DNA from: Chiloscyllium plagiosum
Taxonomy: Eukaryota
Direction of reading: 5' to 3'
Length of the DNA: 64,000 nt
NCBI RefSeq assembly: GCF_004010195.1
Contig: NC_057718.1
Coordinates: 52,824,498 to 52,888,497 of the forward strand
Below, in pieces: positions 9,640 through 50,175 of this stretch. Position 1 is the first letter of the stretch, and the number at the start of each line of letters is the position of its first letter. The notes beneath the pieces are model-generated. The model made no database searches and was not told the origin of the DNA. It was given only the letters and a program-made list of their open reading frames with translations. The position numbers and the translations under genes were made by a program.

Positions 9640-11110
9640 TTCTTTCATGAGTTGTGGGCATTGCTGCTAGGTTAATGTTTATGGCACAACTTTAAATGAC
9701 TTAAGAAGTTGGCTTCAATAGCTGCAGTCCATATTGTCTAAAGACCAACCACATTGTGATTAGGAAGGGAGTTCTCAGGTTTTCACCAAGCAACAGTGAG
9801 GGAACAGTCATACAGTTCCAAATAAAGATGATATGTGGCTTAGAGGGGAACTTGTCAATGGTGGCATCATCTGCCATTGTCCTTCTAGATCCTACAGATC
9901 ATGACTTTACAAGATGCTGCCAGAATTTTGATGAATTGCTGCAATATATCACGTATATGGCACACATACATATATGCATACAAGTACTTCAACAATGGAG
10001 GGAGTGAATATTTCAGGGGATGGAAGGGGAGCCAGTCAAGCGGACTGATTAGTCCTTGCAAAATGTTGTATTTTTTGGAACATTGTTGGAACAGCAGTCA
10101 TTCAGACAAGTTGAGTCCACCACACTTTGAAATTGTACCTCGGATAGGAGGACAGGCTCTGGGGAGTCTGGAGCTGAGTTACACACTGCAGAAATCCCGG
10201 GCTCTGACTTGTTCTTGCAGCTACTTTATTTCCATCACTGGTCAATTCAGATGCTGTTCAATGGTAAGCCCAGTGGGATGTTGGGAGATGTAGTTATTGA
10301 AATGGTGTAATTTCTAGGGGAATAGTTAGCTTCTCTCCTGGTGGAGATGGATATTGTGTGATGCACATTTCATTTATTACCAGTCAGCCAATGCATGAAT
10401 GTTGCTCAGGGTTTGCCACAAAAATGGGCACAGACTGGTTCAGTACTAGTGGAATCAAGACTGATACTTCATATTGTGCAATCATCAGTGAACATTCTCA
10501 GTTCTGGTCTTTTAGTGGATGGAAGTTACTGATGAAGTAGTTGAAGGTGGTGAGTCCTAGGATACAACCTTAAAGAATATCTGCAGAGATTTCCTGGGAC
10601 TAAGATAATTGACCTTCTGGAATCACAGCATAGACTTTGCAGTAAGATTATACTCAACAAGGAGAAAGTGAGGACTGCAAATTCTGGCAATCATTTGACT
10701 CTGATCTCTAGCATCTGCAATTGTCACTTTCTCGTCATAGATTATAACCATACTGCGAAGCCTCTTCCAAGGATCCCCTCATTCCTGATGCAGGGCTTAT
10801 GCCCGAAACATCAATCCTTCTGCTCCTCGGATGCTGCCTGATTGGATGTGCTTTTCCAGCACCACACTCTTCGACTCTGATCTCCAACATCTGCAGTCCT
10901 CACTTTCTCCTCCTGGAATCACAGTCATCTTCCCTTGTGCCAGGTATCACTGCAACCAATGGAGAGCAACACTCCCCGCACCCAGCCCCTGTTGCCCATC
11001 CCACCAACCAATTCCCTTTGACTTAAGTTTTTCTCAGGTATATGGAGCATACTTTGTCAAACACTACCTTGATGTCAAGGGCAATCACTCTGATCTCATC
11101 TCTTGAGTTC
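9640..11110 (-). mobile_element. CR1/L2-group LINE 3' portion (RT C-terminal half), interrupted at ~10630-10912
   Basis: Collinear with 18905-20000 and 42450-43045; the 3' tail is shared with the MetaSINE-like SINE. Confidence 0.7.
10630..10912 (+). mobile_element. Penelope-derived short element with hammerhead-like core
   Basis: ctgatgc-a-gggc-ttat-gccc-gaaac-atc at 10785-10812; inverted copy of the terminus at 10661; flanking direct repeat ctggaatcacag (10617 and 10913). Confidence 0.75.
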
Positions 11111-11408
11111 TTTATTTTCTTAACATAATTAATCATTATGCCAGTGGCTTTTAATTGAAGCTGATAAACAAAATCAGATTGGGGCAAGAGAACAAAGAGC
11201 TAATAGAATGTTAGCTGCATAACTGGATGACTAGCACTTGGAGGGAAGGAAGATTTGTTATAGTAATACAAAACCCTAGTTAGACCGCATCCAGAGGGCT
11301 TTTTACAGTTCTGGACACTGCAAGAATCATAAGAATACAGCTTACATTCACTGGAATTGTACTCATGCTCCTGGGCTTAATTTGTTTTAAAAATTCTCTT
11401 CTGAGATG

Positions 11409-11848
11409 AACAAACACTACATCAGACAAACTAGCAGGAAACTTACCACCAGGATACATGAACATCAATTGGCCACCAAAAGACATGGCCCACTATCACT
11501 AGTTTCCACATATACAGACAAAGAAGGACACCACTTTGACTGAGACAACACACACATCCTAGGACAGGCAAAACAAAGACATATATGAGAATTCTTAGAG
11601 GCATGGTGGTCTAACCAGAACTCCATCCATAAACACATTGATTTAGATCCTATCTACATTCCCTTGAAAAAAAGAACCTGAAATGACATCACCCACCTTA
11701 AGAAACCAAGACCGATAAATAGAGAGGTGGGACATACCACCAATGAGACTGTCTTCACCAAAGACTCTCACTGAGGATGCCACCTAGTATGGTGAAGAAA
11801 TGTCTAAATACAAACCTTCAAGCTCAGTGAGCTAACTTACATACTTAT
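11409..11848 (+). mobile_element. Penelope-like element 3' end (GIY-YIG endonuclease and pLTR)
   Basis: Translates KHYIRQTSRKLTTRIHEHQLATKRH...GHHFD*DNTHILGQAKQRHI*EFLEAW (YIG half of GIY-YIG); hammerhead-like ctgagga-t-gccacc-tagtat-ggtgaa-gaaatgtc at 11771. Confidence 0.85.
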
Positions 11849-11855
11849 TGCTAGC

Positions 11856-12390
11856 TAGATTTAGCTTGAGATTTCGATTTTATTATCACATGTACTTAAC
11901 TATAGGAATACAGGAGCATGGTGAAAAGTGTACAAAGTCAACTTTCTCTCGTGCCATCTTGGTTACAAAAACCAGAATTTAAAAAAAACACAGAAATAAA
12001 AAAAAGAGCCCAAAGGCAAGAAAAGCATCCAGATCGAAACAAAAAATGTCCAGATGTTGAAGTCTAAATAAAGGTATTTAGAAAGCTCAGCCACTGATGC
12101 AGGTAGCTGGGCCTAGCCACGGCCTGGAGCCTTTTGCTGTCAGAACTTCCTCCGGTCTTTGGGAGGACCTTTGCTGCCACTGCCCCCGAAGGCTGGGGAG
12201 GAATCAGGACCGCTAGGAAGCTACTGATATTGCGCAAACAGCACAGGTCCACTCTTGTTGTCGTGCCGATGCTGATGACCCCACCACAAAAGGCTTTAAA
12301 GAAAAGAAAGTGAAAATTAAAGAAAAAGTGAAATAAAAGGAAAGCAGATGGGGCTTTGAACCCCAGACTTAGAAGCCTGAATGCAGCCAT
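11856..12390 (-). mobile_element. Non-coding retroposon with Rex1/Babar-like termini
   Basis: Minus-strand tail 'ttttcac...acatgtgataataaaa' plus short repeats; head 'aatggctgc'; internal caagatggc; same layout as 27634-28350. Confidence 0.5.
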
Positions 12391-13486: not shown

Positions 13487-14114
13487 TGTTATAGACTAGG
13501 CCAGATCACTCAAAACATTCTTAAGCAAGCAGCCCAGACCATAACTTTGCAATTTGTTTCGGTAAGTGTACAGTGAAAATTATCTGGATTAAGTTAGCAA
13601 GGTTGACTATCAGGTTTAAAGCAGACAAAAAATTTATTCACGCAATTACACAATGAAACACGAATAACAGAATTAAAAAAACCCGTACAGAACTCAGTCT
13701 ATCCAAGCTAGACTTAGATATGCTGTTCCAAATATACACAACAATCCCAATAAGCAAATCCCCTTTAGAACACAGTACAAAAAAGGGTCAGATGCTTACA
13801 GGTTGAAGTTAGAAGGGCAGAAGACCGAGTTTCCACACAGCTCACTGTTAAACTCCCAACCAGTTCTGGACTGAACTAAACTGCGCAGCTAGAGAGCTGA
13901 CCATTCCCCTTTCATTATACAGATCACTTCTAAAACATGACCACTTTAGCCTGAAGTCTCATCTGTTTACATATAAACAAAAAGGCCTCTCAATACCTTT
14001 TAATCTCTGTACCAAACCAGAGTAATCAACACCGAGAGTAGTTTATTACCCCTTTGACACAGTATCCTTGAGAAAAGGCACAGCTTTTTGATAAAATAAA
14101 CCAATTTTGTGACA
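13487..14114 (-). repeat. 3' LTR (628 bp, TG...CA)
   Basis: tgttat...tgtgaca; direct repeat of 17846-18355; adjacent polypurine tract (minus strand aaggagggagg, 14115-14125). Confidence 0.9.
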
Positions 14115-14332
14115 CCTCCCTCCTTAAAAGAATGAACCATCAATATCAAAAGATAGCTTCATTTTTAACCCTTCAAAAACCTGGTTAGTAGTCTAAACAC
14201 ACTTATACATTCTACTAACTATAAACATGCAAACATGCACAACCTCATGTAAATTCACGCCATGTTACACCCATCACCGAACACCTCCATATCGCATTTG
14301 AGTCTTCATAATAAATTGGCTATCACATTTTC

Positions 14333-15550: not shown

Positions 15551-15770
15551 GAACAGCATCTCCCATCTCTACATCATGAACAATTGGGTAAATACTTCCC
15601 AGTATATTTCCGCATATCTCCCCATGGGATCATAATAACTTTTCAACATCATTTCAATTTTCTTGAGGAAGATAACTCAATAATTTATCCCAATTTTTGA
15701 CAACTTCCTCATGATTCAATTTGATTTGAGGAATGTCCAATTCAGAATCCTCTGAACTTGGTTCTTCCTT

Positions 15771-16030
15771 CTATTCTGTAATCATTAACTCCTCCTCCTC
15801 TTGTTTTCCTTTCCTATTAAAATATTTTTTGAGAAAATGCACATTACACACTCTGTAACATTTCTTCCTGTCTGGAGTCCTTATCAAGTAGTTCAACTCA
15901 CTCAATTTCCTCTTGGTTTGATAAGGTCCACTAAACCTGGCTTTTAAAGACTCACCTGTCACTGGAAGTCACACCAATACCTTATCCCCAATTGCAAAAT
16001 TGCGAACTTCTTACCTGCTTCCTGTTTCAT
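15771..16030 (-). pseudogene. Integrase C-terminal GPY/F module
   Basis: LKARFSGPYQTKRKLSELNYLIRTPDRKKCYRVCNVHFLKKY; lies 5' of RT on the coding strand. Confidence 0.85.
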
Positions 16031-16034
16031 TGTA

Positions 16035-16534: not shown

Positions 16535-16694
16535 CCAACAAAACTTCCAGGCTTGTCTGGTTTTTTTGACAACTGGCTTTCTCCTAGCCCACCAACACTG
16601 TCAGTTTGTGTGGCCCACTTTAATACAATGAAAACACCAGAGCTTTTTAACTTCTTTGTCCCCCTCAAGGGTTTCTTTTTTACCCTGTGGTAAG

Positions 16695-17767: not shown

Positions 17768-17825
17768 TGTCTATCTAACCAAACCAAAATAAAGACACTA
17801 ACGTCTACCACTCATTGTTTAAAAT

Positions 17826-17842: not shown

Positions 17843-17845
17843 GTC

Positions 17846-21900: not shown

Positions 21901-22025
21901 ATTAAAGAACAACGGAATATAGTGAGGATGCTGAAGAATGAGGAGTAGGTAACATTCTGTCATTATGAAACCTCCTAATGTGTGTGGATGCTCAACCTTG
22001 AGTTGCCAGATCTGTTGTGAATCTA

Positions 22026-22248
22026 GGAGAAAGTGAGGACTGCAGATGCTGCAGATCAATGTTGAGAGTTTGGTATTGGAAAATCACAGCAGGTCAGGCA
22101 GCATCTGAGGAGCAGGAGAATCAGCATTTTGGGGACAAACCCTTCATCAGGACTGGTTTGATGAAAGGCTTATGTCCAAAACCTCGATTCTCCTGCTCCT
22201 CAGATGCTGCCTGACCTGCTGTGCTTTTCCAGCACCACACTCTCAACC
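22026..22248. mobile_element. Penelope-derived inverted-repeat mini-element with TSD
   Basis: Two opposed copies of the hammerhead-bearing unit; 14 bp direct repeat ctgttgtgaatcta at 22012-22025 and 22249-22262. Confidence 0.88.
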
Positions 22249-22324
22249 CTGTTGTGAATCTATCCTGTCTCGCACAGTGGTAGTGGGCACAACATAATGG
22301 ACAGTAATTTTATGGTCCTCAGAG

Positions 22325-22520
22325 TTTTTTAAAAACATTTATAGCTCAAGTTGTGGGTGAGGTCATAGATTTGTTTGCCGAGCTGATGTGTTTTTCTGCA
22401 GACATTTCATTACCTTATTAAGCGACATCATCAGTGCACCTCCGGTGGAGCGTTAGAGGTCTGGCCTGCCTGGTATTTATGTGTCTCTGTTTTCTGGTAC
22501 TTCTGGTTTCTGTTTTATGG
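22325..22520 (-). mobile_element. Penelope pLTR fragment with hammerhead-like core
   Basis: Minus strand ctgatga-t-gtcgct-taataa-ggtaat-gaaatgtc; similar to 11700-11848 and 24570-24744. Confidence 0.7.
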
Positions 22521-23409
22521 TGCTTATAGAGACAAATACTTTTATTAAAAAAAAAGAAATCCTTACATCATCATGGAAACAAAACCTCTAAGATAATATT
22601 TCACTGCTTAAAACTGCTACTACAAACAATTCCATCACAATAAATAGAAATCAAACATTTACATTGAAGAGTATATATATCAAATATAAAGGTAAATTTT
22701 TCATTAAATAGTTGACACAACAAAAATATGGTTGGCATAGTTACAAGCACTCATTTTTTCAATTCAAATTTGACATTGCATTTAATCTCATTCCATTTTG
22801 TAGAATATGCCACTTCCTAGCTAATCATATCATCTGCTGATTCAGATTTACCAGGGGCTGTACTTCATCTGAAATACTGAAGCATAATTATCACCAACAA
22901 CCTGCATGGCTACAACACTTTCTCACTCAGATCAGGACAGTCCTGATGGCACAGAATCCTTGGAAGGTGTCTTCTCTGATTCCTTGAAGCTGTATGATGA
23001 GTTCTGACACTAATTCAACAGCAGCAATATGTATTGTACAATCTATAATCCCTTGCTTTTCCTTTCTTTGATGTTCTGTCCTTTTCAACTATATAACACA
23101 CAGTAACATTTGGTCTATTCTCAAAGCCCAGCACAGACTATGTTTGAAAAATACTAAAAGAAGAAAACTGCTCCACCTGGCCTGTTCTCTCTTTTCAACA
23201 GTTCCCAGTTTTCTGAACAGTCAAGCAGGTCTCAATCAAATTTCAATTTATCCTTTGTTTCTTAGCTGCTTATTCTCAGGATACAGCCAGACCACATTAG
23301 CATTTCTGAAATACAATGTTGTCATAACCCTCTTTTAAAACTTTCCCCGGCATATGTTGTTTGTAAAAGAACATCAAAATCTGTCCAAGGAACTTCTCCA
23401 TGGAGTCAG

Positions 23410-24345
23410 AGGAGAAGGAAACAAAGGGTGAAACAAAAGATAGAATGGGAAATTGGAAAAGTGACATAGAGTTCAAGTGGAAAATCATGTAAACAAGGTT
23501 AAAAATGTTACGATTCCAAGAATTAATGTTTTGTGTCTCAATGCACAGAGCATTCATAACAGAGAATTTCTAGAAACATGACAATCCAACCGGAACTCTA
23601 TCAACAAACACATTGACTTGGATCCGATTTACCAACCCCTGAGAAAAAGAACAAAAAATGACATCACCATGGGAAATGACATCACCAAAGGAAATGACAT
23701 CACCAACCCAAGGAAATCCAAACATAAAAATACAAAGCAGGCTACACCACCAGGGCTTCATCCGGAGGCTCACAGAAGATGTTGCCCAGTATGGTGACGA
23801 AATATCTGAAAGCGAGCAAGCCTACATCCATTATAAAAGATTCAATATCAAAGTATTTGGAAAACAATGACAGGATTGGATGGAGTCAGTATGGGTTTAC
23901 AAAAGGGAAATCAGGTTTGACAAATTCACTGGAATCTTTCAGGGATGTACCTAGTAGAGTGGAAAAGAGAGAACCAGTGGATGTGGCTTACTTGGTCTTT
24001 CAGAAAGCTTTTGATAAGGTCCTGCGTAAGAGATTAGCATGTAAAATGAAAGCATGTGGGATTGGAGACAGTGTACTGATATAAACAGAGAGCTGGCTGG
24101 CAGACAAGAAACAAAGAATAGGAAAAAACAGGCCATTTTCTAATGGGAGCTAGTGACTACTAGGATACTGCAGGACCAGTGCTTGGACCTAATTCTTGAC
24201 AATATGTCTTAATGATTTAGATGAGGGAATTGAACACAATATAAAGCAAGGGCAGGATACCGAGTTGGGTGATCAGCCATGATCATGTTGAATGGTAGAC
24301 TAAGCTCAAAGGGTCACTTAGCCTACTTCTGTCCTTCTTTTTCCT
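23410..24345 (+). mobile_element. Deleted CR1 ORF2 fragments
   Basis: NVLCLNAQSIHN (endonuclease start), SQYGFTKGKSGLTNSLESF..VDVAYLVFQKAFDKV (RT), CR1 tail. Confidence 0.8.
23560..23830 (+). mobile_element. Penelope-like 3' end nested in CR1
   Basis: REFLE...NSINKHIDLDPIYQPL; three ~16 bp aaatgacatcacc repeats; decayed hammerhead 'cagaagatgttgcccagtatggtgacgaaa'. Confidence 0.8.
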
Positions 24346-24469
24346 GGTTCTAAAAGAAAATAGAGGATTTTTCCTTCACTGGAGTTATTATGGCATTCCT
24401 ATGAAGATGGACTGTCGGTGAAACTAAGGCCTACTGAAGTCACCAGGAAGAAAGCACATAGTTCACCAT

Positions 24470-24744
24470 GCAAGCTTTGTGAAGGTTTGTAGCTCAGGTT
24501 GAGGTTTAGGGTGTGGGTTTGCTCGCTGAGTTGTAGGTTTGATATCCAGACATTTCATTACCCGTTCGAACAGGAAATGACATCACAACAAACCCCAGAA
24601 ACCCTATCCAGGACAGACATATAAATAGAAAGCAGGAGACAACAGCTTCGCTTCACTTGGAGGTCACCACTGATGATGTTACCTAGCCAGGTAATGAAAC
24701 ATCTGGATATCAAACCTACAGCTCAACAAGCAAACCTACACCCT
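24470..24744 (+). mobile_element. Penelope pLTR with 5' inverted partial copy and TSD
   Basis: Hammerhead-like cca-ctgatga-t-gttacc-tagcca-ggtaat-gaaac-atc-tgg at 24667-24706; 12 bp TSD atagttcaccat (24458-24469 and 24745-24756). Confidence 0.88.
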
Positions 24745-27633
24745 ATAGTTCACCATTTATAGAAAATAACCTTATGCTTCATTGAAGAACAAAGTTTGAT
24801 TTTTTTTTTACAACTGAATGAGTAAGGTCTTTTTTGAGACAGCTCTGCAAAATCTATGACACATGTTATTTGTCATTGTTTAAGTAATTACTTACTATTT
24901 TGCAATTAAAATAACTATTCATACAGATTAATGGAAGGAGAGACTGAGCAGATTGACTTAGTGACTCAGCTTCATATAGGCATCTTTTAAAAGGTCAAGC
25001 AGATGTATATTGTAGTGTAACTGAAAAACAAATTAACTCCCCCTGACTGCTATCATATGCCACTATTTTTGGATCTGATATTCTAGACTTTTATTTGAAT
25101 GACAAAATGTAACAAACTGTTGAAACCAATACAGTGGTACTTTTTTAATGTTATCATTCACTATGTGCATGAATAGCACTGTATTGCTTTTATGTTCTAA
25201 ATAAATCATTATGGATGATTTGAGTAGGAGGATAATTTTGCCATAAGTGCATAACTTCACATTTTGCTCCATTGAAAATTTCATGAAAAATGTGTATATT
25301 TTCAGAAGTACTTGCTGTTCTTAAGAATACAATAATCCTAATTAGCACAGCAGGTAAAATGGTGCAATGTCAAAAGTAAATTGGCTGAGCACAATTCGTT
25401 ACTAAACCTGATGATTAATTATTTTGGTAGATTGTAAAATGAATAGCAACGATTAATATACCATGTTAGAATGCATATTTAGTTTTCATATTTTTGCACT
25501 TATTCTGCATTAATCTCAATGTAAGATCCACTGAAGTCATACTTTATTTTATGGCTCAGGCTAAGAGCAAGCAATTGTTTATTTCTTGGAAGTAACCAAC
25601 ACTTTTCTCAACCAGCTGCTTGGAGCAGAGAATGTTATGAAATGTTTTTCCTGTTTTAATTGTTGGTTTTAATTTTCCCTCCTTTGTTTCTAGTGAATAA
25701 TTGAATAATCTTTATTCACCTTCCTCTGTGCCAGTAAAATCAGATTAACAATTGGACACTTGAAGAATTTCAAATTCACTTCACAGTCCTAGTACACAGC
25801 AGCTCTAGGCCTCCAAATGTCTGCACTACTGCTAAAAACAAAATCTTATTCAATAGCTGTACTAGATCTACAGCATGACAGGAACACTATGTTAAAAAGT
25901 GTCTTTAATAATACAATGATGGAATCCCTTAATGGCTGCCGAGGGGAGTACATCTTCTGGTATTGCTGGGATGCAGGGAACAGGAAGATCCTACATTTGG
26001 TCCTTAATCTATGCTGGATCATCTGTTTTCAGCTGGAGTGGTGACAGGTTACATATCATGCATAAGTTCTGGATACAGTCAACTTTGGTTTAATATATTC
26101 CTGGAAATTTGTGGAGGTACTCGTTATTTCCAGGGAATCTGATCATATGATCGAAAACCTGTTATATTTAATCACATGACATCTGTTTACATGACAACTC
26201 TATTTGCAAATTTGATCGTATTTATCTTAGTTGAGTGCCTGAGTATTACTAAGCACTGAATAAAAATATTAGACTTGCTTCAGTGTTGAGCTGAAATGCA
26301 AAATAAATGATAAATCAAAGAAGAAACATAAAGAATGTATCGACGTGAAGCTACATAATGTTTACATTTTTAAAAAGTGGCTATTTTCTATAAAATTGAC
26401 TTCAATAAGAAGCATGAAAGAAATATGACTGAATTAATAAAAATGTTATCAAGGAGATGAATCCTAACTAATTTCTTTTTGTTGAATTTGACTTCATGAA
26501 ATGGAGTTAAACATCAAAACTAGATCTGATGGAAGCCAATTCATTGACATTCATACCACACCATGGTAACCCAGCTTCAGGAAGCTGAAGATCAGTCCTC
26601 AGGAAAAGAACATTAAAGCTGCCGAACTTGCCAAAATAAAAAGATTGTACAGCAATGCGCAACATAGTCTGGCACAAAACGCCCCTTTCTCAGCAGTTAT
26701 GTTAGGTGTTTTATTTTGTTTATTTTTCATTGAAGGTTCATGTCAATTTCCATTGTTATACTTGTCACACAGTGGGACATGGCTGAACTTGCAGTTCAGC
26801 TGACCTTTTTGTCTTTGTGTTATTAAGGAGATTATCTGAGATCAGCTATTAGAAGGGATAATTGAAATATTCTTGGTGAACTCAAAGCACTGTAAGAACT
26901 CTGCCAGCCAATATTCTGAAGTGGATGCACACTTGGATAATCCTCATACCACCTTTTAGGATCCTCATTCTCTTACTACAACTGATTATTCATTATCCCA
27001 TTCCCATTCCCACCACTCCCAGTTTGCTACAGCCCATTCTCATTTCACTTCTCTGTGCCTTAACTATACCCTCTGTCCCCTCCTGGATCCATTTTGAACT
27101 CTTTCATTCCCCCAGCACAGTACACACCCTGCTCTCACAACTATGACAATCCTGCCAGTATCAAACCTCCATGCAACCTGCCATTTTCCTCTCCCTTGTA
27201 GAAATCATGGAATACTGTTAACCTGGCACACAATTGGACATAGCTGACTGAGGCATGCCACCTTTAAACAAATATGAACCGTGTGCATTGATATTCTTGC
27301 AATCTACAAGCTTCATTTTTGAAGTCACAAGTTTCATTTTGAATGTTTTTTAAGGTTGATGTGAGGATCATAATGCCACAAGTGTGCCTGAGATCTCTGC
27401 ATGTCAACCTGCATCAGTATTTCAAACTTTCACATCCAACCTCATTAAGTTAAACTGATGCCATGTTTTCTGTCCTTCTGGCCATCTTAAAACCATCCCC
27501 TGTACCCAGAAAATAGTGCATATTTTTGATCTCCTTATTTAAAAATCAGGTAGTTCAGATGGTTAAGTCTGTGGTAGTTAATAGTGTCGTGAGTGTTGGT
27601 TTAGATAGGTTGTTATTGATTCTGCTTGTTTTC

Positions 27634-28469: not shown

Positions 28470-29280
28470 ACATTGGAGACAGGTCAAAATAAGTTTACTA
28501 GCTTAATTCCTGGAATGAAGGAACTGTCTTATGAGGAAACATCGAGCATGTTTGAGTGGTACTGATTAGAGTTTAGAAGGATGAGAAGTGACCTTATTGA
28601 AACATATACAATTCTCAGGGGACTTCACAGAGTAGACGACAATACCCTTCCTGGAGAGTCGAGAAGCCTGAGGCATAGTATCAGAACATGGGATTGTCTG
28701 TCAAAGAAGGAGGTGAAGATGAATTAGTTCTCTCAGAAGTTTATGAACATTTGGGCTTGTTTATACCAAAACTGTTAAGGTTATGTCACTGAATATATTC
28801 GTGGCTTAGTTAGACAGATACTTGAGCAATAGAGGGATTTGTCAAGGGTTTGTTAAACAGGCAGGAAAGTGAGGTTCAGATCAGCCATATCTTATAGAAT
28901 CGAAAAATGTGGCTCTGGAAAAGTACAGCAGGTCAGGCAGGATCAGAGAAGCAGGAGAGTCGATGTTTTGGGCATAAGAAGCCTCTTCCAAAGATGCCCA
29001 CCTTGAAGAAGTTGTCCTCCCTATTCCACAAGGATTTCAGTGAGTCTCTCTCTCTCATTGCAACCCCCAGTTCATTTCCTCTGCCTCATTCCTGATGAAG
29101 GGCTTATGCTTGAAACATCGACTATCCTGCTCCTCAGATGATCCCTGACCTGTTGTGTTTTTCTAGCGCTACGTTTTTCGACTTTGATCTCCAGCATCTG
29201 CAGTCCTAATTTTCTCCATATTTAACAGAATGCCAGAGGAGATTCAAGGGCATATATACTCTCCTCCCACTCTTCGTTTT
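28470..29280 (+). mobile_element. CR1 3' fragment split by a Penelope-derived unit
   Basis: KFTSLIPGMKELSYEE...LEFRRMRSDLIETYTILRG; the tail resumes after 29218. Confidence 0.8.
28900..29218. mobile_element. Penelope-derived inverted unit with hammerhead core
   Basis: ctgatga-a-gggc-ttat-gctt-gaaac-atc at 29092-29119; inverted partial copy at 28900-28978; imperfect TSD ccatatcttatagaat / ccatatttaacagaat. Confidence 0.82.
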
Positions 29281-34289: not shown

Positions 34290-34457
34290 ATAGATAGTTT
34301 ATCTCTCCACCCCCAACGCTCCAGCCTCATTCCTGATGACGGGCTTTTGCCTGAAAAGTCGATTCTCTGCTCCTCGGGTGCTGCCTGACCTGCTGTGATT
34401 TTCCAGCACCACATTCTCGACTCTAATCTCCAGTAATATGCAGTCCTCACTTTCACC
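34290..34457 (+). mobile_element. Penelope-derived unit with hammerhead core
   Basis: ctgatga-c-gggc-tttt-gcct-gaaa-agtc at 34333-34360, followed by the family tail. Confidence 0.82.
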
Positions 34458-35123
34458 TAGTGTAAATAACATACGTTACATCAGAAAATCCATTTGACAG
34501 ACAGAACTTTTTTTCCAAGGTACCAACTGAGAAATATTCTTATGTCCTATTCATAGCACACTTTCCCACCTGTCTTGTAGCATCCATAAATGGACCATGC
34601 ACTAAATGCAGAGTACCTACAAGCTCCACAAGGCAAGTTACTCCTTCAGACTACTTCACTTCAATTGTTAACTGTGACTTTCCTTTCAAAAGAACATGCT
34701 GATTCATCCTGATTACCTTGAGTTGTTGCAAATATGTATCTACAACCTTCTTATGTATAATTCCAGTGCCTTTCACATGGCAGATGTCAAGTTAACTGAC
34801 CTGTAGTTTCTTGTTTCTTCCTCCCTCCATTCTTGAACAGAAGAGTTATATTTGGTACTGGAAGAACTCTTCCAGAATCTAATGAATTTCAGAACATTTT
34901 CATTATTACTCTATTACTTCATTAACCAACTCATTTAATAAGCTAAGAAGACGTCAATTGGTTGAGGGGATGTACGGACTATAGTTCCATCATTTTGCTT
35001 AATATCATTTTCCTAGTGATTGTATTTCCACAAATGTTCTCTCTGCCTTCCACCTCCTGATTTACACCTATTTCTATAATATTTTTGTTTTATATCCTCT
35101 TTTGTGATGATAGAGCAAAATAT

Positions 35124-35223
35124 CTTTGAAGAAACATCATTGGACTCAAAATGTTAAATTTGTTTCTCTCTCCATAGATACTGCCAGATCTGCTGTGTTT
35201 CTCCAGCATTCTTTGTTTTCTTC
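35124..35223 (+). mobile_element. Short Penelope-derived unit (second subfamily) with TSD
   Basis: 12 bp direct repeat agagcaaaatat (35112 and 35224); decayed tgaaga...caaaatgtt core; reverse fragment of the same family at ~43060-43115. Confidence 0.65.
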
Positions 35224-35907
35224 AGAGCAAAATATTTATTCATTTCAAGAATAATTTCCTTACTATCTACTACCAATCCCATCCTTCAGAGGACCAAAAA
35301 TCGCTTTACTTTTATTATTTTAAAATATCTTTAGAATCTCTTTAAATTCATTTTTACATTTCTAATTTGCCTCCTCTCATTCTCTTATTTGTTTCTCCTG
35401 ATTAATCTTTTAGTCATTTTCCATCATTCTTTATATCTAATTATCCTGCCACTCACCTTTGTGCCACTAAATGCTTTTTAGATAATCTGAATAACTTCAT
35501 TTAACACTCAGTCCTGACGGTTGGTGCATTTTTCAGGTTTATTCTTTCTGTCCTCTCCTGACATTCTCGTCCTTCAATTTCCATATTTATATTCTGCTCT
35601 CCAACTTTACCGTTACCCCTACATTTGTTGAAGGTACTTAAGCTTTAATCCTCACTCGCATTGTTTAGTTTAAAGCCCTCTCTACTTCCTCAGAGATACT
35701 GTTTTTATGGACCAACACTTACAGCATGGCCCAAGTGAAGACATACTAATAATACCTAGTGCAGCCCTCATATTCCCCAGTAATGTGTTCTGTACTCTAT
35801 GAAATGGAACCATTGTCAATAGCTTTAAGTGTCCACCACAATTAGCATGTGCTTCAGTTACCCGTCAGGCCTTGCTCTCCAATTTAATGCCTGGCTCCTG
35901 ATACCGA

Positions 35908-36088
35908 CTAGAGACAAAAGAAATCTGCAAATGCTAGAATCCAAGGTAGACAGAAGGAGGCTGGAAGAACACAGCAAGCCAAGAAGTCAACATTCAGGTG
36001 TCCTGAAGAAGGGTTACACCTGAAACATTGACTTCTCCACTTCTTGACGCTGCCTGGCTTTCTCGGTCTTTCAGTCTCCTGCCTGTTT
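35908..36088. mobile_element. Penelope-derived inverted unit (third subfamily)
   Basis: ctgaaga-a-gggt-tac-acct-gaaac at 36003; left half is the reverse complement of the right half. Confidence 0.72.
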
Positions 36089-38415
36089 ACTCCTGGCACT
36101 ATCGAAGCAGAATCACTCTGCTTTACCTGTATCATTGATAGCAATATGGACCAAGACAATTGAATTCTTTCACTAATCCACCATCCTCTGCCCCCACCAT
36201 CTCCAGGTTCCTGTCCAATCCTGAACAGATATCCTGGCACTGGGTAAACAACAGACCCTTTTGAATTCACAGTCTTGCCTGCACGCTTTAGTTCTTTTTG
36301 CTGCCCCGACTTAAATGGTTTCCTGTACCACAGAGTCATGCTCAGTTAGCTCATCCAGCCTGCTGCCCCTACTCTCATCCAAACACACTGAAAGAACCTC
36401 AGATATGTTGAAAAATTGCAAAGGCTGAGACTGCTGTGCTCCTGCCTTTTGATCTCCTCACCTGCCATAATCAGCGGTGCCAGAACACTGATCCAGTCAA
36501 AAACATTGGTCTAAGGAATGTAACCTCCATCCAGCACAAAATAACCAGATCATCTACCCCCTCCTTGATGTGGCATAGTATCTATAGTGCAGTCTCTGGC
36601 TCATACTCTGAAACTCTGAACTGAAATTCCTCGAGCTCTAACTATTAAATGCTGACAACATTGCATCAAGGAGCTTCCACACACCACAACATATGATCTG
36701 TCCTGCTATCCTTCCAATTCCTTACAAATTAACTACATTAATAATTTATTCAATTAACTGTTTCAGTTTTTTATAAACCTTAGAACAGACCTTAACCAGT
36801 TACCAGTCGCTCACAGAACTTATTTCCTGTAGTAGTTTGAGAACCAATTCCAAACTGCTAGCACTCTGCTTCTGTATGCTTTTCATAACCCCACATCTGT
36901 CAGATGATTCCTCCCTCTGTCCCTCACTGCTTCTCTTCACTTCCCAATCATGGCCTTTCAACACAGAGTGTCAGATCCAGCAGCCATGCAGCCTCTCAAT
37001 TTGGCCAAGTGCCAGTGGGAAATGGAGAATAATATTTCAATTGAGGTCCTGCCATTCTGTTTGACAGGACTTCAACATTAGTCACACTGCCAGGCTCCTC
37101 AACCAGTAATAGTCATCCTTGTTCCCTCCTTACCTCCCCGTAAATATAAGATCCAAGACTCTGCAGATGGAAATCTGATTGCAAAGTTTTGCACCACAAA
37201 CAAAAGCAAAGATGGTATGAATCCAGCTAAATGTGACTCATCCAAATGAAGAACATGACATGCATTTGCCATACTGTGATATTGTCTGAAAGCTCTTAGA
37301 ATGATAATAATTCTGAAAAGATCACTTTGTATGATCTCATATTTAATACTCAAAAGTGTGAGGTTTTTTTTGTCTTACATTGCTGGTCTGAAATGGACCA
37401 CCATTTATCTGGAGAATGTTTTAATAGTAATTAATTGTGAATCTCATGGAGACTTTGCACCTTTAGATACTAAATGAAAGTAAAAATTATTTTTATTGAT
37501 AAATGTGTCTGATATCATCATTACAAGTTTCGAATAGTATCTATTCTAATCCTTTGCAGCACACATAAATTCAAGTTCAGGTAAAAAGAATTTGTTTATA
37601 AATTCAACACTGTCATGACCAATAATTTTCTCAGTCTATACATATCAATTCAGGAAAAGCTCCTGCTTTGATGTCTGTAATAACCTCTTTCACTTATTGT
37701 GCTCCAGACATGGTGTAATCATTCGTCTGAACAGGGTCGGAGACCCCATTTCTGACCTTGATTATAAGAAAAGCTACTTAATTACCACGAGGTGTTTTCT
37801 GTGCTGGAGATTTCTGGACAGAGACCTCCCTTATTGAGCCTGTCCAAAACTGCACAGATCCAGCAGTGAAGAAAATCCATAGAAATCAATTACCCCCTTT
37901 GCAGCAGTCAATGTGCCTTACTCTGTGATTTAAACATCCAACAGCACAGCCAGACACTTTTACAGCTCCATAAAAAAGGGTAAAGACGGAAGCAAAGTGT
38001 AGGGTTATAGTTGCAATAGGTTAAGTAGCCAAGGTACCAGGTCCACGAGGGGTGTTATGTGTCACGTGAAGGAGGGGAGGTTGTGCATACCAGGTGGGTG
38101 ATGTTGGTAGGGTGCTAGTAAGTAGGCTCCTAGATAGTTGAAGACAGCAACACTCCAGGTGGGTAGGAGGTGGATAGAGTAGGATGGCTTGGTGTAGGTC
38201 ACAGGCTGTGTGTAGGGTTAGTATTGAGTGTTGGCTCCATCAGCAGGCACTGTATTCTGGTGGCGCTCCAATGGGGTCAGACCAGTAGTTGGGGTGAGCA
38301 GTAGTTCGGTTGGATGGGCCGGCAGAGTTGGAGTGTGGGGTGTGTTAGAGGGAGAAAGTCGTGTCAAGCTGGGGTCAGATTGGGTGTGAGTGGAGTTCAG
38401 TCTGACAGGTAGAGT

Positions 38416-43045: not shown

Positions 43046-43114
43046 ATCACTGACTTTTGGAAAAACTCAGCATCTGTGGAGAAAGAAACAGAGTTAATGT
43101 TTTGAGTCTGGGAT

Positions 43115-44960
43115 GAGTCATAGAGTCATACTGCTTAGAAACAGGCTCTTCAGCCCCACCATGTCTCTGCCGACCAACAAATACAAAACTACACTCTTCC
43201 CATTTACCTGCGCTTAGCCCAGGGACTACCCTTGGCATTTTACATACTCATCCAGATGCTTCCTAAATATTTCAAGAATGTCTGCCTCCATCACCATCTC
43301 ATGTAGTACTTTCCATACATTTACTACCCTCCAGGTGAAAATACTCTTTCTCAGATCTCCTCACCATAAATGTATGCCCTCTGGTCTCACACATGTCAGT
43401 CATAGGGAAGAGATTCTCACTATCTGCTCTATCTCTGCCTCTCATAATTTTATGCACTTTGATCAGATTTTCCCTCAGCCTCCTCTGCTCCAAATCAAAC
43501 AAACCCAGCCTAGTCTGTCTCTCCTCATAACTGAAACTTTTCATCTCAAGTAATATCCTGATGAATCTCCTCTGCACCTTTTACAGTGCTATCTCATCCT
43601 CTAACAATGTGGTGGCCAGAACTGCACACAGTATTCCACCAGTGGCCTAACCAATGCTTTACAAAGTTACAACAAGACTTCCTTACTCCTATATTCCATG
43701 CCCCAGCTATTCTTCATTATTCTTGTGCTTCAGGGATCTATGGACGTGTATACTATGATCTCTTTGTTCCTCAGTACTCCCAAAGAACCTACCATTCATT
43801 GTGTATGTCCTTCCTTTATTAGACCTCCCAAAATGCATCACCTCACACTTATCAGGATTATGACTATTTATGCCTTCCAACTTCACATCAAAGTTTGTTA
43901 ATGTACAATATAAAAGCAAGGGTCTGAGCACTGACCCTGGTGGTACACCACTGGTCATAGGCTTCCAATTAAAGAAGCAATTCTCCACCATCACTCTTTG
44001 CCTCCTATTGGGATCCAGTTTGTCAAGTTGACTTCGATCCCATGGCTTTGCAAACTCTGGACAGCCTTCCACCTGGCATTTGTCAAAGGCCTGACTGAAC
44101 TCCATGTAAACCAGATCAACTGCACTACTCTCATCAATATATTTAATCACCATTTCAAAAATGCTCAATTCAATTAATCAGATGGATTAATGAATCTGTG
44201 TAATGAATCAATACTGGTTATCCCTGATCAACCCATGCCTTTCCAAATCATGCCCTCCCTCCTATAGCACTCCTTTAGCCCCACGTCCATCTGACCTATC
44301 TTCCTATTCCTATACTCAGTAATGAATGGTCTTTTTTATCCATGTTATTGATACAGTCATACATCACGACTGCTGACTGTTCACCCTCCCCTTTCAGAAT
44401 GCAGTTGCTTTGACACATCCCTGACCTTGGTACCAGAAGGCAACATACCATTCCAGAGTTTCATTTGCTGCTGCCTATCAGTTCCCTGTACAATCAAGTT
44501 CACAACCACTATGGTCTTTTACCTCCTCTGCTGTGCAGCAGCGGCAGCTATGTGCCTGAACCTGGCTGTTGCTGCTATCCCCTGAGAGGCCATCACCCCC
44601 CAACAGTTACAAAAATGTATATCATTTAAGAGGGGACTGGGAACTCCTGCACTGTCTACCTGTGCTTACTAGTCTTTCTAGTGGTCACCCAACTCATTTA
44701 TGCCTGTGTAGCCTTTACTTACAGTGCCACTAGCTCACTCAATGTGCATCCATGACATCCTCAGCATTATGGATGTTCCATAGTGAATCCATTTGCAGCT
44801 TCAGTCACACAATCAGGAACTGAACACATTTCTTACATATGCAGTCACCATGGACACTGGAAGTGTCCCTGATTTCCCATGTATTGCTGGAGGAACATTC
44901 TGCATTGCTGGGTTCTCCTGCCATTGTGAATCTTACCAACTACAAACAATAAACTATGAA
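43115..44960 (-). mobile_element. CR1 LINE (deleted): RT/3' end plus ORF1 fragment
   Basis: VDLVYMEFSQAFDK..TSGVPPGSVL; QRRFIRIL..SYEER; ORF1-like piece at 44250-44960. Confidence 0.85.
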
Positions 44961-46499: not shown

Positions 46500-47460
46500 A
46501 ATGAGCGTTCAGGCTATGTTCCTGTGGTATATTTTATCTCCACTGCTGATCTATTGACCTATTTGGTATTTTTCTTCCCATTTGCTTTAGGCCAATCTCC
46601 TTTTATCTGAACTGAACATTGCACTTTACCAGTGCAGCTACCTTATCTTTGACCATTCATTATCCTTTATTGCTTTTACATGAAATCTAATTATGTTGTG
46701 GTCACTTTGTCCCAATCGTTCCCTTACTCTTACAACATCAATTGTCTCACATCATTTCCCAGAACTAAATAAAATAAAGTTTCTTTCCTTGTTTTCTGGA
46801 GGCCTACTGATCCAAGGACGAGTCCAGGAGCTGTGCTAAAACAAAATCCATTTTGAATCTGCACCGTAATTTTTTCTTTCTGTTTTGTAATAATTATTTT
46901 CGCTCAATGTTCTGTGGTTCTTATTTATCAATGGCTACCAATTTCAATCTTTTTTTCATTTTGATGGTTTCATGGCCAATATGCAATTTGAGGATTATGC
47001 AACATTTCCCTCATTTTGGTGCTATTGACAGAGATTATCTGTCATTAGAGCACATAGTAAATTCTACATTCTGGTGCTATGATCAAATTCTTCATCAATC
47101 TCTTCACTACTGATGTAGTTTGTTGGGTTAAAAACTACTGTGAGTATGATTTAGTTGGAGCATTTCTCTTTATGTTAGCTCATGTAACATATATCACAAT
47201 TGGATTTTTTTTTAGACAGATATCTTGCAGTTCATTAACAACTCTAACCATTTACACTGTATCACAAATGTTGGCATGTATATCACAAATATACATGGTC
47301 TGGATAGTGTACTTACCGATGTTACTGTACCTTATGTACTGACTGACTCAACACATGCTTTGACTCTGTTACACAGTGAGTGACTGAAAGCAAGGTGAGT
47401 ATTTTTATAGTGTAATGCCAACTGTTATGATGTCGTGTAACTGTCTTAAAGGTATAATTC
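46500..47460 (-). mobile_element. Old, highly decayed CR1-group endonuclease fragment
   Basis: Reverse strand shows an SDHNIIRF-like motif near 46680-46710 and a VALHYK-like motif near 47410. Confidence 0.45.
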
Positions 47461-47490
47461 ATTTGGAATCTATGCAATAACACGACAGAA

Positions 47491-50175
47491 AGTGGCATTT
47501 TTAATAAGAGATAACATTACAGCTGTACTGAGGGAGAATACGCCTGACAGTAAGTCCAGGGAAGTTATTTGGGTAGAACTGAGAAATACAAAAGGGACTA
47601 TTACTTTGTTGGGATTGTATTATAGATCCCTAAATAGTCAGTGGGAAATTGAGACACAAATTTATAAGGAGATCTCAGTTATCTCTATTCCTGATGAAGG
47701 GCTTTTCTCTATTTTCCTGCTCCTCGAATGCTGCCTGACCTGCTGTGCTTTTCCAGCACCACTATAATCTAGACTCTGATTTCCAGCATCTGCAGTCCTT
47801 GTTTTTACACTGTAAGAATAATAGGGTGGTTATGGGGCAGGAATTTCAACTTTCCAAACACAGACTGGGACTGCCATAGTGTTAAGGGTTTAGCTGGAGA
47901 GGAATTTGTTAAGTGCGTACGAGATAACTTTCTGATTCTGTATGTGGATGTAACTACAAGAGAAAGTGCAAAACTTGGCCTACTCTTGAGAAATAAGGTG
48001 GGGGCAAATGACTGACTGGTCAGTGGAGGAACACTTTGGGGCCAGCGAGCATAATTCTACTCGTTTTAAAATAGTGATGGAAAAAGATAGACAGAATCTA
48101 AAAGTTAAAGTTCTAAGTTGGAGGAAGGCCAATTTTGACAATATTAGGCAAGAACTTTCAAAAGTTGATTGGATGCGAATGTTCACAGGAATAGGGACTG
48201 CTGGAAAACTGTCTTCATAACAAGAGCCCAGAGACAGGATGTTCTTGTTATGGTGAAAGGCGAGGCTGGTAGGTGTAGTCAACGCTGGATGACTAGAGAA
48301 ATTGAGGTTTTGGTCAAGAGAAAGAAGGAAGCACATGTCAGCTACAGACAGCAGAGATCGAGTGAATCCTTAGAAGTGTATAAAGACAATTGGAGTGTAC
48401 TTAAGAGGTAAATCAGGAGGTCAAAAACTGGACATGAGACAGCTTTGGCAGATAGAGTTAAGGAGAATCCAAAGGGCTTTTATGAACACATTAAGAACAA
48501 AATGATAACCCAGAAGAGAACAGGTCCTCTCAAAGATCAGCAAGGCAGCCTATGTGTGGAGCCACAGGAGATGGGGTAGATACTAAATTAGTATTTTGCA
48601 TTGGTGTTTACTGTGGAGAAGAATGTGGAAGGTACAGAATTGGGGAAAAGGATGGTGACCTCTTGAAAAATGTCCATATTACAGAGGAGGTGGTGCTGGA
48701 TAAAGGTGGACAAATTCCCAGGACCTGATCAGATGTACCCTAGAACTCTGAAAAAAGTTAGGGAAGTGATTGCTAGGCCCCTTGCAGAGGTATTTGTGTC
48801 ATCAATAGTCACAGGTGAGGTGCTGGAAGACTGGAGGTTGGCTAATGTGGTACCACTATTTAAGAAAGGGGTTAAGAAAAAGCCAGACAACTGTAGACTG
48901 TTGAGCCTGACATTGGTGGTGGGCAAGTTGTTGGAGAGAATGCTGAGAGGGATTTACATGTATTTGGATAGGCAAGGAATGATGAGGGATAGTCAAAATG
49001 GCATGGGAAATCCTGTTGTACTAACTTGATTGAGTTTTTTTGAAGAAGATTTTGAGGGCAGAATGGTAGATATGTTCTATATGGACTTCAGTAAGGCATC
49101 CGAAAAGGTTCCTCACAGTAGATTGGTTAGCAGTTTTAACTCACATAGAATACAGGGAGAATTAGCCATTTGGATATAGAACTGGTTCGAAGGTAGAAGA
49201 CAGAGGGTAGTGGAAGAGGGTTGCTTTTCAGACTAGAGACCTGTGACCAATAATGTACCACAAGAATTGGTGCTGGAGCCACTTCTTTTCATCATTTATA
49301 TAAACAAGTTGGATATGAAAATAAGAGGTTTTGGTAGTAGGTTTGCAGATAGCACCAAAATTGGCACTGTAATGAACAGCAAAGAAGATTACCTGAGAGT
49401 ACAACTGGATCCTAACCAGATGGGCCAGTGGGCTGAGGAGTGGCAGATGGAGTCTAAGTTAGATAATTATGAGGTGCTGCATTTTGAAAAGGCCAATCAG
49501 GACACTTAATGGCAAAGTCCTGGGCAGTGTTGCTGAACAAAGAGACCTTGGAGTGCAGGTTCATAGTTCCTTGAAAGTGGAGAAAGTGCTTGGTATGCTT
49601 TCCTTTATTGATCCAAGCTTTGAGTATAGGAATTGAAAAGTCATGTTGTGGCTATACAGGATATTGGTTCAGCCACTTTTGGAATATTGTGTGCAGTTTT
49701 GGTCTCCCTCCTATTGGAAGGATGTTGTGAAACTTGAAAAGGTTCAGCAAAGATTTACATGGATGTTGCCAGGGTTGGAGGGTTTGAGTGATGGGGAGAG
49801 GCTGAACAGGCTGGGGCTGTTTTTCCTGGAACATCAAAGTCTGAAAGGTGACCTTATAGAGGTTTATAAAATCATGAGGGACATGGATAGGGTAGATAGA
49901 CAAAGTCTTTTCCCTGGGGTGGGGGAGTCCAGAAATAGAGGGCATAGGTTTAGGGTGAGAGGAAAAACATTTAAAAGGGACCTAAGGGACAGCTTTTTCA
50001 CTCAGAGGGTGGTGCGTGTATAGAATGAGCTGCCACAGGAAGTGGTAGAGGCTGGTACAATTACAACATTTAAAAGGATCTGGATGAGTATATGAATAGG
50101 AAGAGTTTAGAGAGATACTGGCAAATGGGACTAGATTAATTTAGGATATCTGTTCGGCATGGTCAAGTTGGACTG
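47491..50175 (+). mobile_element. CR1 LINE ORF2 pseudogene with 3' tail
   Basis: IWVELRN..GLYYRS, HFGASEHN, KFPGPDQMYPR..DWRLANVVPLFKKG, FADSTK, PLLEYCVQFWSP. Confidence 0.93.
47686..47808 (+). mobile_element. Penelope-derived unit nested in CR1 (hammerhead partly deleted)
   Basis: cctgatgaagggctttt followed by the family tail; GAAA half missing. Confidence 0.8.

What the first reader, a model, noticed from the sequence alone, without database searches (positions are those of the whole stretch)
10630..47808. Dispersed short Penelope-derived elements carrying minimal hammerhead ribozyme cores
Seen: at least ten sites share CTGANGA-N-stem II-GAAA(C)-NTC, in several distinct families with different stem II sequences: gggc/ttat/gccc (10785, 29092, 34333, 22159, 47690), gttacc/tagcca/ggtaat (24670, 11771, 22400 minus, 23770) and gggt/tac/acct (36003). 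Core positions are mostly kept while the stems differ but still pair. Established: Penelope-like elements carry minimal type I hammerheads with a very short palindromic stem III, thought to cleave as dimers. Inference: 100-300 bp non-coding units, several with their own TSDs, behave like SINE- or retrozyme-like mobile ribozyme RNAs at high density in this shark genome. Most copies carry ACATC rather than ACGTC (CpG decay) and may be inactive.
Basis: partly seen in the sequence, partly recalled or inferred. Interest (0 to 1): 0.72.

Follow-up and report, generated by a model that had tools for sequence, protein, structure and literature searches.

The report
Penelope retroelement ends with hammerhead ribozymes
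The ribozyme-like motifs are real, but they sit in old, decayed end-pieces of Penelope-like jumping genes, laid down in the short and mirror-image pattern already described for this class, and are likely inactive leftovers rather than a separate family of mobile ribozyme RNAs.

Summary
Observation partly confirmed. All 10 sites are dispersed repeats with hammerhead-type boxes; 5 of 10 pass a strict minimal-hammerhead descriptor (500 shuffles: mean 0.06, maximum 1). None of 10 arms keeps the ACGT palindrome, although the family-A majority does. Rfam models miss them. The SINE/retrozyme reading is not supported. A shark RT/GIY-YIG protein aligns to all four family-B sites, and two carry the endonuclease end. 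Five of 14 loci are head-to-head pairs; in four, the arms differ by a 31-38 nt tail, and 5 of 13 loci tested have clear target duplications. This is the published Penelope insertion signature. No locus is a head-to-tail tandem and none starts at the cut site. Two insertions are shared with related species. One RNA run shows family reads on both strands, no end pile-up and no reads on this locus's unique flanks. Most family A/C/D copies start 2-9 nt before the core, probably the RNA's 5' end (inferred). The scan noted the same thing many times elsewhere in this genome (156 notes match).

The parts
10617..10924 (+). Family A complex insertion: TSD 10617-10628 / 10913-10924; inverted arm 10629-10693 (minus); forward piece 10694-10777 running about 45 nt past the usual 3' end; main arm 10777-10912 with hammerhead boxes at 10785-10812 (A9>C, CpG>CA)
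   Evidence: present at the same place in organism B (record 9)
11418..11850 (+). Family B 5'-truncated Penelope-like copy: C-terminal part of GIY-YIG endonuclease frame (11418-11681, two internal stops), 3' repeat region with AT-rich box 56 nt before the core, hammerhead at 11771-11804 with damaged stems
   Evidence: 5' junction bridged in organism C (record 17)
22012..22262 (.). Family A head-to-head pair in a 14-bp TSD (22012-22025 / 22249-22262): long arm 22026-22157 (minus, core at 22150), short arm 22158-22248 (plus); arms differ by a 34-nt tail; both cores mutated
22308..22521 (-). Family B copy (divergent subfamily) 22325-22512 with long tail, hammerhead core intact at 22434-22401 (CpG>TG), 9-bp TSD 22308-22316 / 22513-22521
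23561..23830 (+). Family B 5'-truncated copy with the last 34 codons of the endonuclease frame, 18-bp internal tandem, hammerhead at 23773 (U4>A, CpG>TA); no TSD found
24458..24756 (+). Family B head-to-head pair in a 12-bp TSD (24458-24469 / 24745-24756): inverted arm 24470-24566 with 38-nt tail, main arm 24567-24744 with the best-kept hammerhead (24670-24703, CpG>CA)
28885..29231 (+). Family A pair in a degenerate 16-bp TSD: inverted short arm 28901-28978, forward piece 28979-29083 holding a 30-codon open frame from ATG 28994 (likely the start of the parent element's ORF; unconfirmed), main arm 29083-29217 with intact boxes at 29092 (CpG>CA); arms differ by 37 nt
34299..34460 (+). Family A single copy, the only one reaching about 34 nt upstream of the core; boxes intact at 34333 (C15.2>A); no TSD found
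35112..35235 (+).
35909..36098 (+). Family C head-to-head pair: inverted arm 35909-36000, main arm from about 36000 with intact boxes at 36003; no clear TSD
43050..43125 (-).
47685..47812 (+). Family A single copy inside LINE-like sequence; first box at 47691, GAAA box lost in a 9-nt deletion; no TSD found
60430..60900 (-).
8200..8262 (-).
   Evidence: nhmmer E 0.05

Best explanation
These are old, mutated end-pieces of several Penelope-like retrotransposon families, each holding the minimal hammerhead motif of its parent's terminal repeat, likely written into the genome by the parent's own reverse transcriptase/endonuclease from uncleaved RNA and likely unable to cleave or move again. Steps: (1) shown: the motif lies about 75-135 nt upstream of sharp 3' ends, and in families B and E it is joined to the end of a GIY-YIG frame. 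(2) Inferred from the Anolis element PAc: the enzyme cuts AT-rich DNA on both strands and starts copying inside the RNA at one of two sites a tail-length apart, so even the shortest product includes the hammerhead. (3) Inferred: priming at the 3' repeat gives variably truncated copies (B, E), while the ~135-nt A/C/D units are run-off copies ending at or near the RNA's 5' end, 2-9 nt before the core. (4) Inferred: each cut strand primes its own cDNA and the two are joined head to head, giving the inverted pairs with unequal tails inside a 12-16 bp TSD. (5) Shown in part: the core was kept in the parent lineages, while inserted copies decay about like the sequence around them.
For: P0002 (RT + GIY-YIG, Stegostoma) aligns by tblastn to all 4 family-B sites, strongly at 11406-11726 (E 1e-39) and 23543-23761 (3e-18), and across the hammerhead at 24555-24740 (1e-6), 22495-22358 (0.008). 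Family E frame: 100 relatives at E<=0.001; 11 of 18 scanned match GIY-YIG at E<0.1, 4 above the Pfam cut-off. Five of 14 loci are head-to-head pairs; arm ends differ by 31, 34, 37, 38 nt in four, matching the 30-40 bp tail and inverted 5'-truncated copy described in PMC8557442 and PMC3846280. Genome-wide contigs end sharply at 10910/10911 into unrelated AT-rich DNA (924 + 1364 contigs in X1, agreement 0.34-0.35), and 33-39 nt tail duplications occur. Family-B ORF bins are at least as deep as the hammerhead bin (89,000-195,000 vs 46,000 in X1). All arms read through the cut site. Decay: 0 of 10 arms keep ACGT; family A core changes 5 of 60 vs 94 of 788 elsewhere; family B core 1 of 48 vs 151 of 592 between subfamilies. 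In 4 of 5 pairs the inverted arm is predicted to pair with most of the GAAA-to-cut-site stretch. De novo PLE insertions in Chlamydomonas have a median of 128 bp (PMC9977147).
Against: Families A, C and D were not tied to an RT or endonuclease by any database hit; the 30-codon frame at 28994 gave nothing informative, so their class rests on architecture. Six of 7 A/C/D main arms with a core start 2-9 nt before it, which random truncation does not predict and a discrete non-autonomous RNA would. Head-to-tail joints of the 135-nt unit exist in the genome (3 contigs in X1, 6 in X13, 0 in X18). The tail at 36003 was unresolved (17 nt by automatic alignment), and 10785 uses a third 3' register. No TSD was found at 7 of 13 loci tested. 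The PAc mechanism comes from one lizard element of the Poseidon clade.
Confidence: 0.8

Rival explanations
1. The ~135-nt family A (and C, D) unit is a discrete non-autonomous element, a SINE-like or retrozyme-like RNA with its own life cycle: tandem dimers self-cleave, circularise and are copied in trans by a Penelope enzyme.
For: Sharp 5' and 3' limits; summed depth about 1.5-2.5 million against 5-12 on unique flanks in X1 (not a copy number); family majority keeps A9 and the ACGTC box; rare head-to-tail joints 10911>10777; retrozymes are reported as PLE terminal-repeat derivatives, including in one chondrichthyan (bioRxiv 10.64898/2026.07.22.740005).
Against: No tandem unit among 14 window loci; unit limits do not fall at the cut site; loci 10785 and 29092 include sequence from 45-140 nt downstream of the unit's end; head-to-tail joints carry depth 16 and 101 against about a million; no RNA read shows that joint and no end pile-up was listed in X21 (a fragmented poly(A) single-cell library, 2% read, is a weak test); classical retrozymes carry canonical hammerheads in tandem (PMC7229834).
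Confidence: 0.12
2. The clustered 5' ends are strong reverse-transcription stops or template-switch points at the folded hammerhead (or at a splice acceptor just before it) in a long RNA, not the RNA's start; everything else as in the best explanation.
For: Inverted arms begin inside stem II at 24566, 28978 and 36000; the one longer A copy shows a pyrimidine run and CAG just before the common start (34333); in D. virilis an intron ends at helix I (PMC4209133).
Against: Family B and E copies were copied straight through their hammerheads (5' ends 78, 103, about 210, 353 and about 460 nt upstream); no shared 5' exon precedes the A copies.
Confidence: 0.3
3. Some copies are host-kept functional ribozymes or regulatory RNA elements.
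For: Two insertions are shared with relatives 3-6% diverged at this locus; five sites keep both boxes and pairable stems.
Against: No copy keeps the palindrome needed for the dimer; the hammerhead-shaped fold is 1.5-7.4 kcal/mol above the minimum in the 4 family-B copies tested; unique flanks at 10500-11950 have zero RNA depth in X21; sharing reflects age.
Confidence: 0.03
4. The motifs are chance matches to a short pattern.
For: Rfam hammerhead models give no match; covariation in the 4 family-B copies does not exceed shuffles (57 of 500 reach the paired fraction).
Against: 5 strict hits vs mean 0.06; all five lie at the same position in repeat families; three different pairs at stem I position 3 (UA, CG, GC) and 82.5% paired cells vs 22-45% for slid controls.
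Confidence: 0.01

Closest known systems
Minimal hammerheads (min-HHR) in the pseudo-LTRs of metazoan Penelope-like elements (Cervera and De la Pena 2014, PMC4209133)
   Same: Type I core without a real helix III, palindromic 15.2-16.2, an extra base before stem II, G-C at the base of stem II, several families per genome, mostly single motifs of truncated elements, and pairs on opposite strands 100-700 bp apart.
   Different: That paper's parts I read name fishes, coelacanth, Xenopus and reptiles, not sharks; density here is 14 loci and about 5% of 63.5 kb; family A has a 4-bp stem II and only a 2-bp stem I.
Insertion architecture of EN+ Penelope-like elements: 5' truncation, adjacent inverted copy, 30-40 bp tail, 8-10 bp TSD (Arkhipova et al. 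2013, PMC3846280; Craig et al. 2021, PMC8557442)
   Same: Head-to-head arms, tail on one arm (31-38 nt in 4 of 5 pairs), TSDs, ORF end in longer copies.
   Different: Clear TSDs here are 9-14 bp; most inserts are stubs without ORF; two loci carry an internal piece from downstream of the tail, and 10785 shows a third 3' register.
PAc, Poseidon element of Anolis carolinensis (Frangieh et al. 2024, PMC11167929)
   Same: Uncleaved RNA is the template; two internal start sites define the tail; AT-rich targets; no RNA-seq ends at the cut site; the hammerhead lies just upstream of the start sites.
   Different: No intact element or activity here; clade of families A, C, D and E not determined.
Metazoan non-LTR retrozymes (PMC7229834; bioRxiv 10.64898/2026.07.22.740005)
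   Same: Short non-coding repeats with type I hammerheads, related to PLE terminal repeats; monomers dispersed.
   Different: Retrozymes are head-to-tail tandems with a hammerhead in each unit and give circular RNA; no window locus is tandem, and such joints are rare in the contigs.

Membership tests
EN+ Penelope-like element (families B, E) | Joined to a reading frame of the RT + C-terminal GIY-YIG type | tested here: met
   B: 65-80% identity to 7 proteins, six named from carpet sharks, three with RVT_1 and weak GIY-YIG matches. E: 11 of 18 relatives match GIY-YIG. Only the C-terminal part is in the window.
EN+ Penelope-like element (families A, C, D) | Joined to a reading frame of the RT + GIY-YIG type | tested here: inconclusive
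   Only a 30-codon frame at 28994; no informative hit; no genome held.
EN+ Penelope-like element | Adjacent inverted 5'-truncated copy with a 30-40 bp tail on one arm | tested here: met
   5 of 14 loci have inverted arms; overhang 31, 34, 37, 38 nt in four, unresolved in one; 33-39 nt tail repeats in contigs.
EN+ Penelope-like element | Target-site duplication on insertion | tested here: met
   Clear at 5 of 13 loci tested (p<=0.006 against 2957 random flank pairs), degenerate at 1, none at 7.
EN+ Penelope-like element | Full-length element with pseudo-LTRs in partial tandem; RT phylogeny placing the clade | not testable with these tools
   No genome held; no relatives in metagenome or genome collections.
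Minimal type I hammerhead (min-HHR) | CUGANGA and GAAA boxes with stems I and II | tested here: met
   5 of 10 listed sites strict; mean 0.06 in 500 shuffles.
Minimal type I hammerhead (min-HHR) | Palindromic 15.1-16.1 stretch allowing a dimeric helix III | tested here: met
   Met in the family-A majority in three DNA runs; lost in all 10 window arms scored.
Minimal type I hammerhead (min-HHR) | Covariation of stems | tested here: inconclusive
   4 family-B copies: 82.5% paired, 2 pairs with two-sided change, not above shuffles.
Minimal type I hammerhead (min-HHR) | Self-cleavage | not testable with these tools
   Needs in vitro assay; no RNA end pile-up in one unsuited library.
Rfam Hammerhead families | Score at the gathering threshold | tested here: not met
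   No match at gathering or at E<=10.
Non-LTR retrozyme | Head-to-tail tandem units each with a complete hammerhead | tested here: not met
   0 of 14 window loci; rare joints elsewhere in the genome, content between not known.
Non-LTR retrozyme | Unit-length linear and circular RNAs bounded by the cleavage site | tested here: inconclusive
   No such ends or joints in X21, but it is a poly(A) single-cell library of which about 2% was read.
SINE | Pol III (tRNA, 5S or 7SL) head and fixed non-coding unit | tested here: not met
   No tRNA gene in the window and no Rfam match at these sites; family B 5' ends vary and include coding sequence.

The most novel reading that the evidence does not exclude
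The shark stubs are a mass record of the Penelope integration reaction. The ~135-nt units are complete run-off cDNAs from a start site just before the hammerhead, primed at the 5'-proximal tail of an ordinary parent mRNA. The head-to-head pairs show both strands of one staggered cut priming separate cDNAs at start registers about 31-38 nt apart (three registers in family A). The rare head-to-tail 135-nt dimers are retrozymes being born. This would let the PLE mechanism, and the hammerhead's role in it, be read from very large numbers of natural insertions.
Probability: 0.3. Interest if true: 0.55.

Novelty: new member of a known kind. Interest (0 to 1): 0.22.

Why it matters
As found, it is a further case of a described phenomenon: minimal hammerheads on truncated Penelope-like insertions, here in a shark. 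It matters for annotation, since these stubs make up about 5% of this window, are missed by Rfam, and form long fold-back hairpins when transcribed. If the run-off and two-strand priming reading holds, the very abundant shark families would give a large natural test set for two open questions: how Penelope-like elements make inverted ends with tails, and what the hammerhead does in their cycle.

Tried and rejected
Rfam scans: no hammerhead at gathering or E<=10; five unrelated weak matches are chance. No genome is held, so no census, copy number or parent element. Exact-pattern scans for the family-A tail found nothing in viral, genome or metagenome collections; a 16-base pattern gave 122 viral loci whose best matches were 24-37 nt and are treated as chance. 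The search for related loci with the family-B alignment confirmed no locus. Pfam did not recognise the window's own fragments; word-based searches with a 42-aa piece and with the family-E frame found nothing; Atlas searches were uninformative; family E does not align to the family-B profile (probability 0.8%). No RNA holder was listed for 22000-24800; this is no evidence either way. Empty-site search for 47690 and 23773 among the window's other LINE copies found none. Monomer folding: only 1 of 8 motifs reached z below -2, and none folded as an open three-way junction. In one search the row for 8259 was off by one base and was dropped; the printed total (13 of 132) includes it, the 6 of 120 used here does not. 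Total loss of the ACGT CpG was considered as selection against activity and not accepted: A-CG-T is a fast-decaying methylation context (recalled, not tested). An upstream promoter was only looked at by eye: an AT-rich box lies 46-56 nt before the core in 4 of 4 B copies and a weaker one 35 nt before it in 34333; this is no proof.
Full report
CHECK OF THE OBSERVATION. All ten sites are in the sequence and fall into repeat families. A strict minimal-hammerhead descriptor finds 5 sites in the window: 24670, 29092, 34333, 36003 and 22434 minus. In 500 dinucleotide shuffles the mean is 0.06 and the maximum 1. The other five listed sites are damaged: A9>C at 10785, C3>T and G12>A at 22159, U4>A at 23773, loss of the GAAA box at 47690, broken stems at 11771. 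Rfam has no hammerhead match at gathering or at E<=10. None of 10 arms scored keeps the CG of the ACGT palindrome: CA 4, TG 3, TA 1, CC 1, AG 1 (the row for 8259 was mis-registered and dropped). Profile searches extend the list to 14 loci covering 3182 of 63,500 bases, about 5% (boundaries set by hand; 8259 is weak).

WHAT THE FAMILIES ARE. Family B (11771, 22434, 23773, 24670). The DNA upstream of 11771 reads as the C-terminal part of a GIY-YIG endonuclease with two stops. It is 65-80% identical to 7 proteins among 14 candidates, six of them named from Stegostoma, Chiloscyllium or Hemiscyllium, so the host is likely a carpet shark or close relative (inference). Three of six scanned carry RVT_1 and weak GIY-YIG matches. 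One of them, P0002, aligns to all four B sites, including across the hammerhead. B copies start 78, 103, about 210 and 353 nt before the core. In DNA run X1 the ORF bins are deeper than the hammerhead bin (89,000-195,000 vs 46,000), with the caveat that coding sequence collects more subfamilies at an 80% cut. Families A (5 loci), C (1) and D (2) share tail sequence but were not tied to a protein. At 10694-10777 the A tail runs on about 45 nt past its usual end and overlaps 28979-29000 at 19 of 21 bases; the latter leads into a 30-codon frame from ATG 28994, which had no informative hit. The templates of these two insertions were therefore longer than the 135-nt unit.

INSERTION ANATOMY. Five loci are head-to-head pairs (10785, 22159, 24670, 29092, 36003). 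One arm is longer at its 3' end by 31, 34, 38 and 37 nt in four; 36003 is unresolved. Target duplications are clear at 5 of 13 loci tested (9-14 bp; p<=0.006 against 2957 random flank pairs), degenerate at 29092 (16 bp, p 0.07) and not found at 7. Laying three DNA runs at 80% likeness on 10500-11950 shows family-A contigs ending sharply at 10910/10911 into unrelated AT-rich DNA (924 and 1364 contigs in X1), duplications of the last 33-39 nt, and a few head-to-tail joints of the whole unit (3 contigs in X1, 6 in X13, 0 in X18; only the best-supported rows were shown). The family majority has A9 (1,051,685 of 1,063,012 summed depth) and the intact ACGTC box in all three DNA runs. Summed depth on family A is 1.5-2.5 million against 5-12 on unique bins; this shows great abundance but is not a copy number. 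Six of 7 A/C/D main arms that hold a core start 2-9 nt before it; 34333 reaches about 34 nt further. Every arm that covers the cut site reads through it, and none starts there.

AGE, DECAY AND RNA. The 10785 insertion is bridged in organism B (9 differences in 270 bases) and the 11771 insertion in organism C (35 in 580). Family-A core positions changed at 5 of 60 against 94 of 788 elsewhere, so there is no sign of selection after insertion; family-B cores changed at 1 of 48 while subfamilies differ at 151 of 592, which points to selection in the parent lineages. Stem pairing in four B copies is 82.5% against 22-45% for slid controls, but 57 of 500 shuffles reach it. The hammerhead-shaped fold lies 1.5-7.4 kcal/mol above the minimum in those four. 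In 4 of 5 pairs the inverted arm is predicted to pair with most of the GAAA-to-cut-site stretch. RNA run X21 (poly(A), single cell, about 2% read) gave 2529 reads, 34 of them 99% alike or more, on both strands, with zero depth on most unique bins and no place where many molecules begin or end. This library is a weak test of cleavage.

HOW IT MOST LIKELY WORKS. Shown: motif, families, link to the endonuclease frame (B, E), inverted arms, tails, duplications, decay, shared insertions. Inferred from PAc (PMC11167929): the enzyme cuts and extends both strands at AT-rich sites, starts inside uncleaved RNA at two sites that define the tail, needs sequence downstream of them, and its hammerhead cleaves only with protein and is dispensable for insertion in vitro. 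On that model every short product carries the hammerhead because it lies just upstream of the start sites, and a stub lacking the downstream sequence could not be copied again. My further inferences are that the A/C/D stubs are run-off copies to the RNA's 5' end (a reading I took from earlier notes of this scan and checked only on 7 window arms) and that each cut strand primes one arm of a pair. PMC3846280 proposes self-priming on an antisense template for such pairs instead; my data do not separate the two. A retrozyme-like life for family A remains possible at low odds.

COMPARISON AND VERDICT. PMC4209133 already reports thousands of mostly single minimal hammerheads of truncated PLEs per genome, with pairs on opposite strands. 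PMC8557442 and PMC3846280 describe the inverted copy, tail and TSD. PMC9977147 gives a median of 128 bp for new PLE insertions in an alga. The 2026 preprint derives retrozymes from PLE repeats and includes one chondrichthyan. Three searches listed no paper on these shark families, but the library lacks most subscription journals and I could not consult Repbase or Dfam. The scan has noted the same thing in this genome many times (156 of 266 notes match the words). Verdict: real, a new member of a known kind, interest 0.22.

PAPERS, WHAT I SAW. PMC4209133: parts 1-2 of 4 (abstract, results, discussion, part of methods). PMC11167929: parts 1-2 of 4 (main text, start of methods). bioRxiv 10.64898/2026.07.22.740005: parts 1-3 of 5; its supplementary tables, which may list the shark families, were not available. 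PMC3846280, PMC8557442, PMC2377424, PMC7229834, PMC9977147, PMC6155905: passages only. No supplements were read. The family letters A-E are my labels. Context dependence of CpG decay and the look of promoter and splice motifs are recalled, from no call.

Noticed in passing
window 13487-18332: Decayed LTR retrotransposon on the minus strand: repeat pair 13487-13975 / 17846-18332 (85-91% alike), RT and RNase H pieces at 14336-15426, SCAN-domain frame at 16698-17363; an assembly gap of 500 N lies inside it at 16035-16534.
   Followed up: partly
window 50800-53900 and 62200-64000; also 39000-41200, 43200-44200, 47450-50170: Several decayed LINE-like copies with endonuclease and RT pieces; the two largest are 82-91% alike and have an upstream frame with a weak OSK (esterase-like) match.
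   Followed up: partly
window 5381-5489, 8962-9133, 41056-41232: Dispersed SINE-like repeat in both orientations, 80-88% alike; ARAGORN finds no tRNA.
   Followed up: no
window 10629-10777: Locus 10785 has three pieces and a third 3' register about 31 nt beyond the usual end; both here and at 29083 the junction to the hammerhead arm falls on a short shared GCC/CCT stretch, as a template jump would.
   Followed up: partly
window 34299-34333: The only longer family-A copy has a pyrimidine run and CAG directly before the point where the other copies start; could be a splice acceptor or a transcription start.
   Followed up: no
window 10777-10911, in runs X1 and X13: Rare head-to-tail joints of the 135-nt unit in genome contigs (3 and 6 contigs): candidate retrozyme-like dimers elsewhere in the genome.
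   Followed up: no
proteins P0002-P0004, P0006: Shark gene models read through the family-B endonuclease end, and two are named as host proteins (CUE domain protein 2; a CDP-alcohol phosphatidyltransferase match): exonised or mis-annotated PLE pieces.
   Followed up: no
window 4499-4652: Inverted repeat of 60-nt arms, 87% complementary, 34 nt apart, unrelated to the Penelope families.
   Followed up: no
window 60100-60250: Acidic, exon-like stretch on the plus strand next to the family-E copy; no Pfam match for the opposite-strand frame tested.
   Followed up: no
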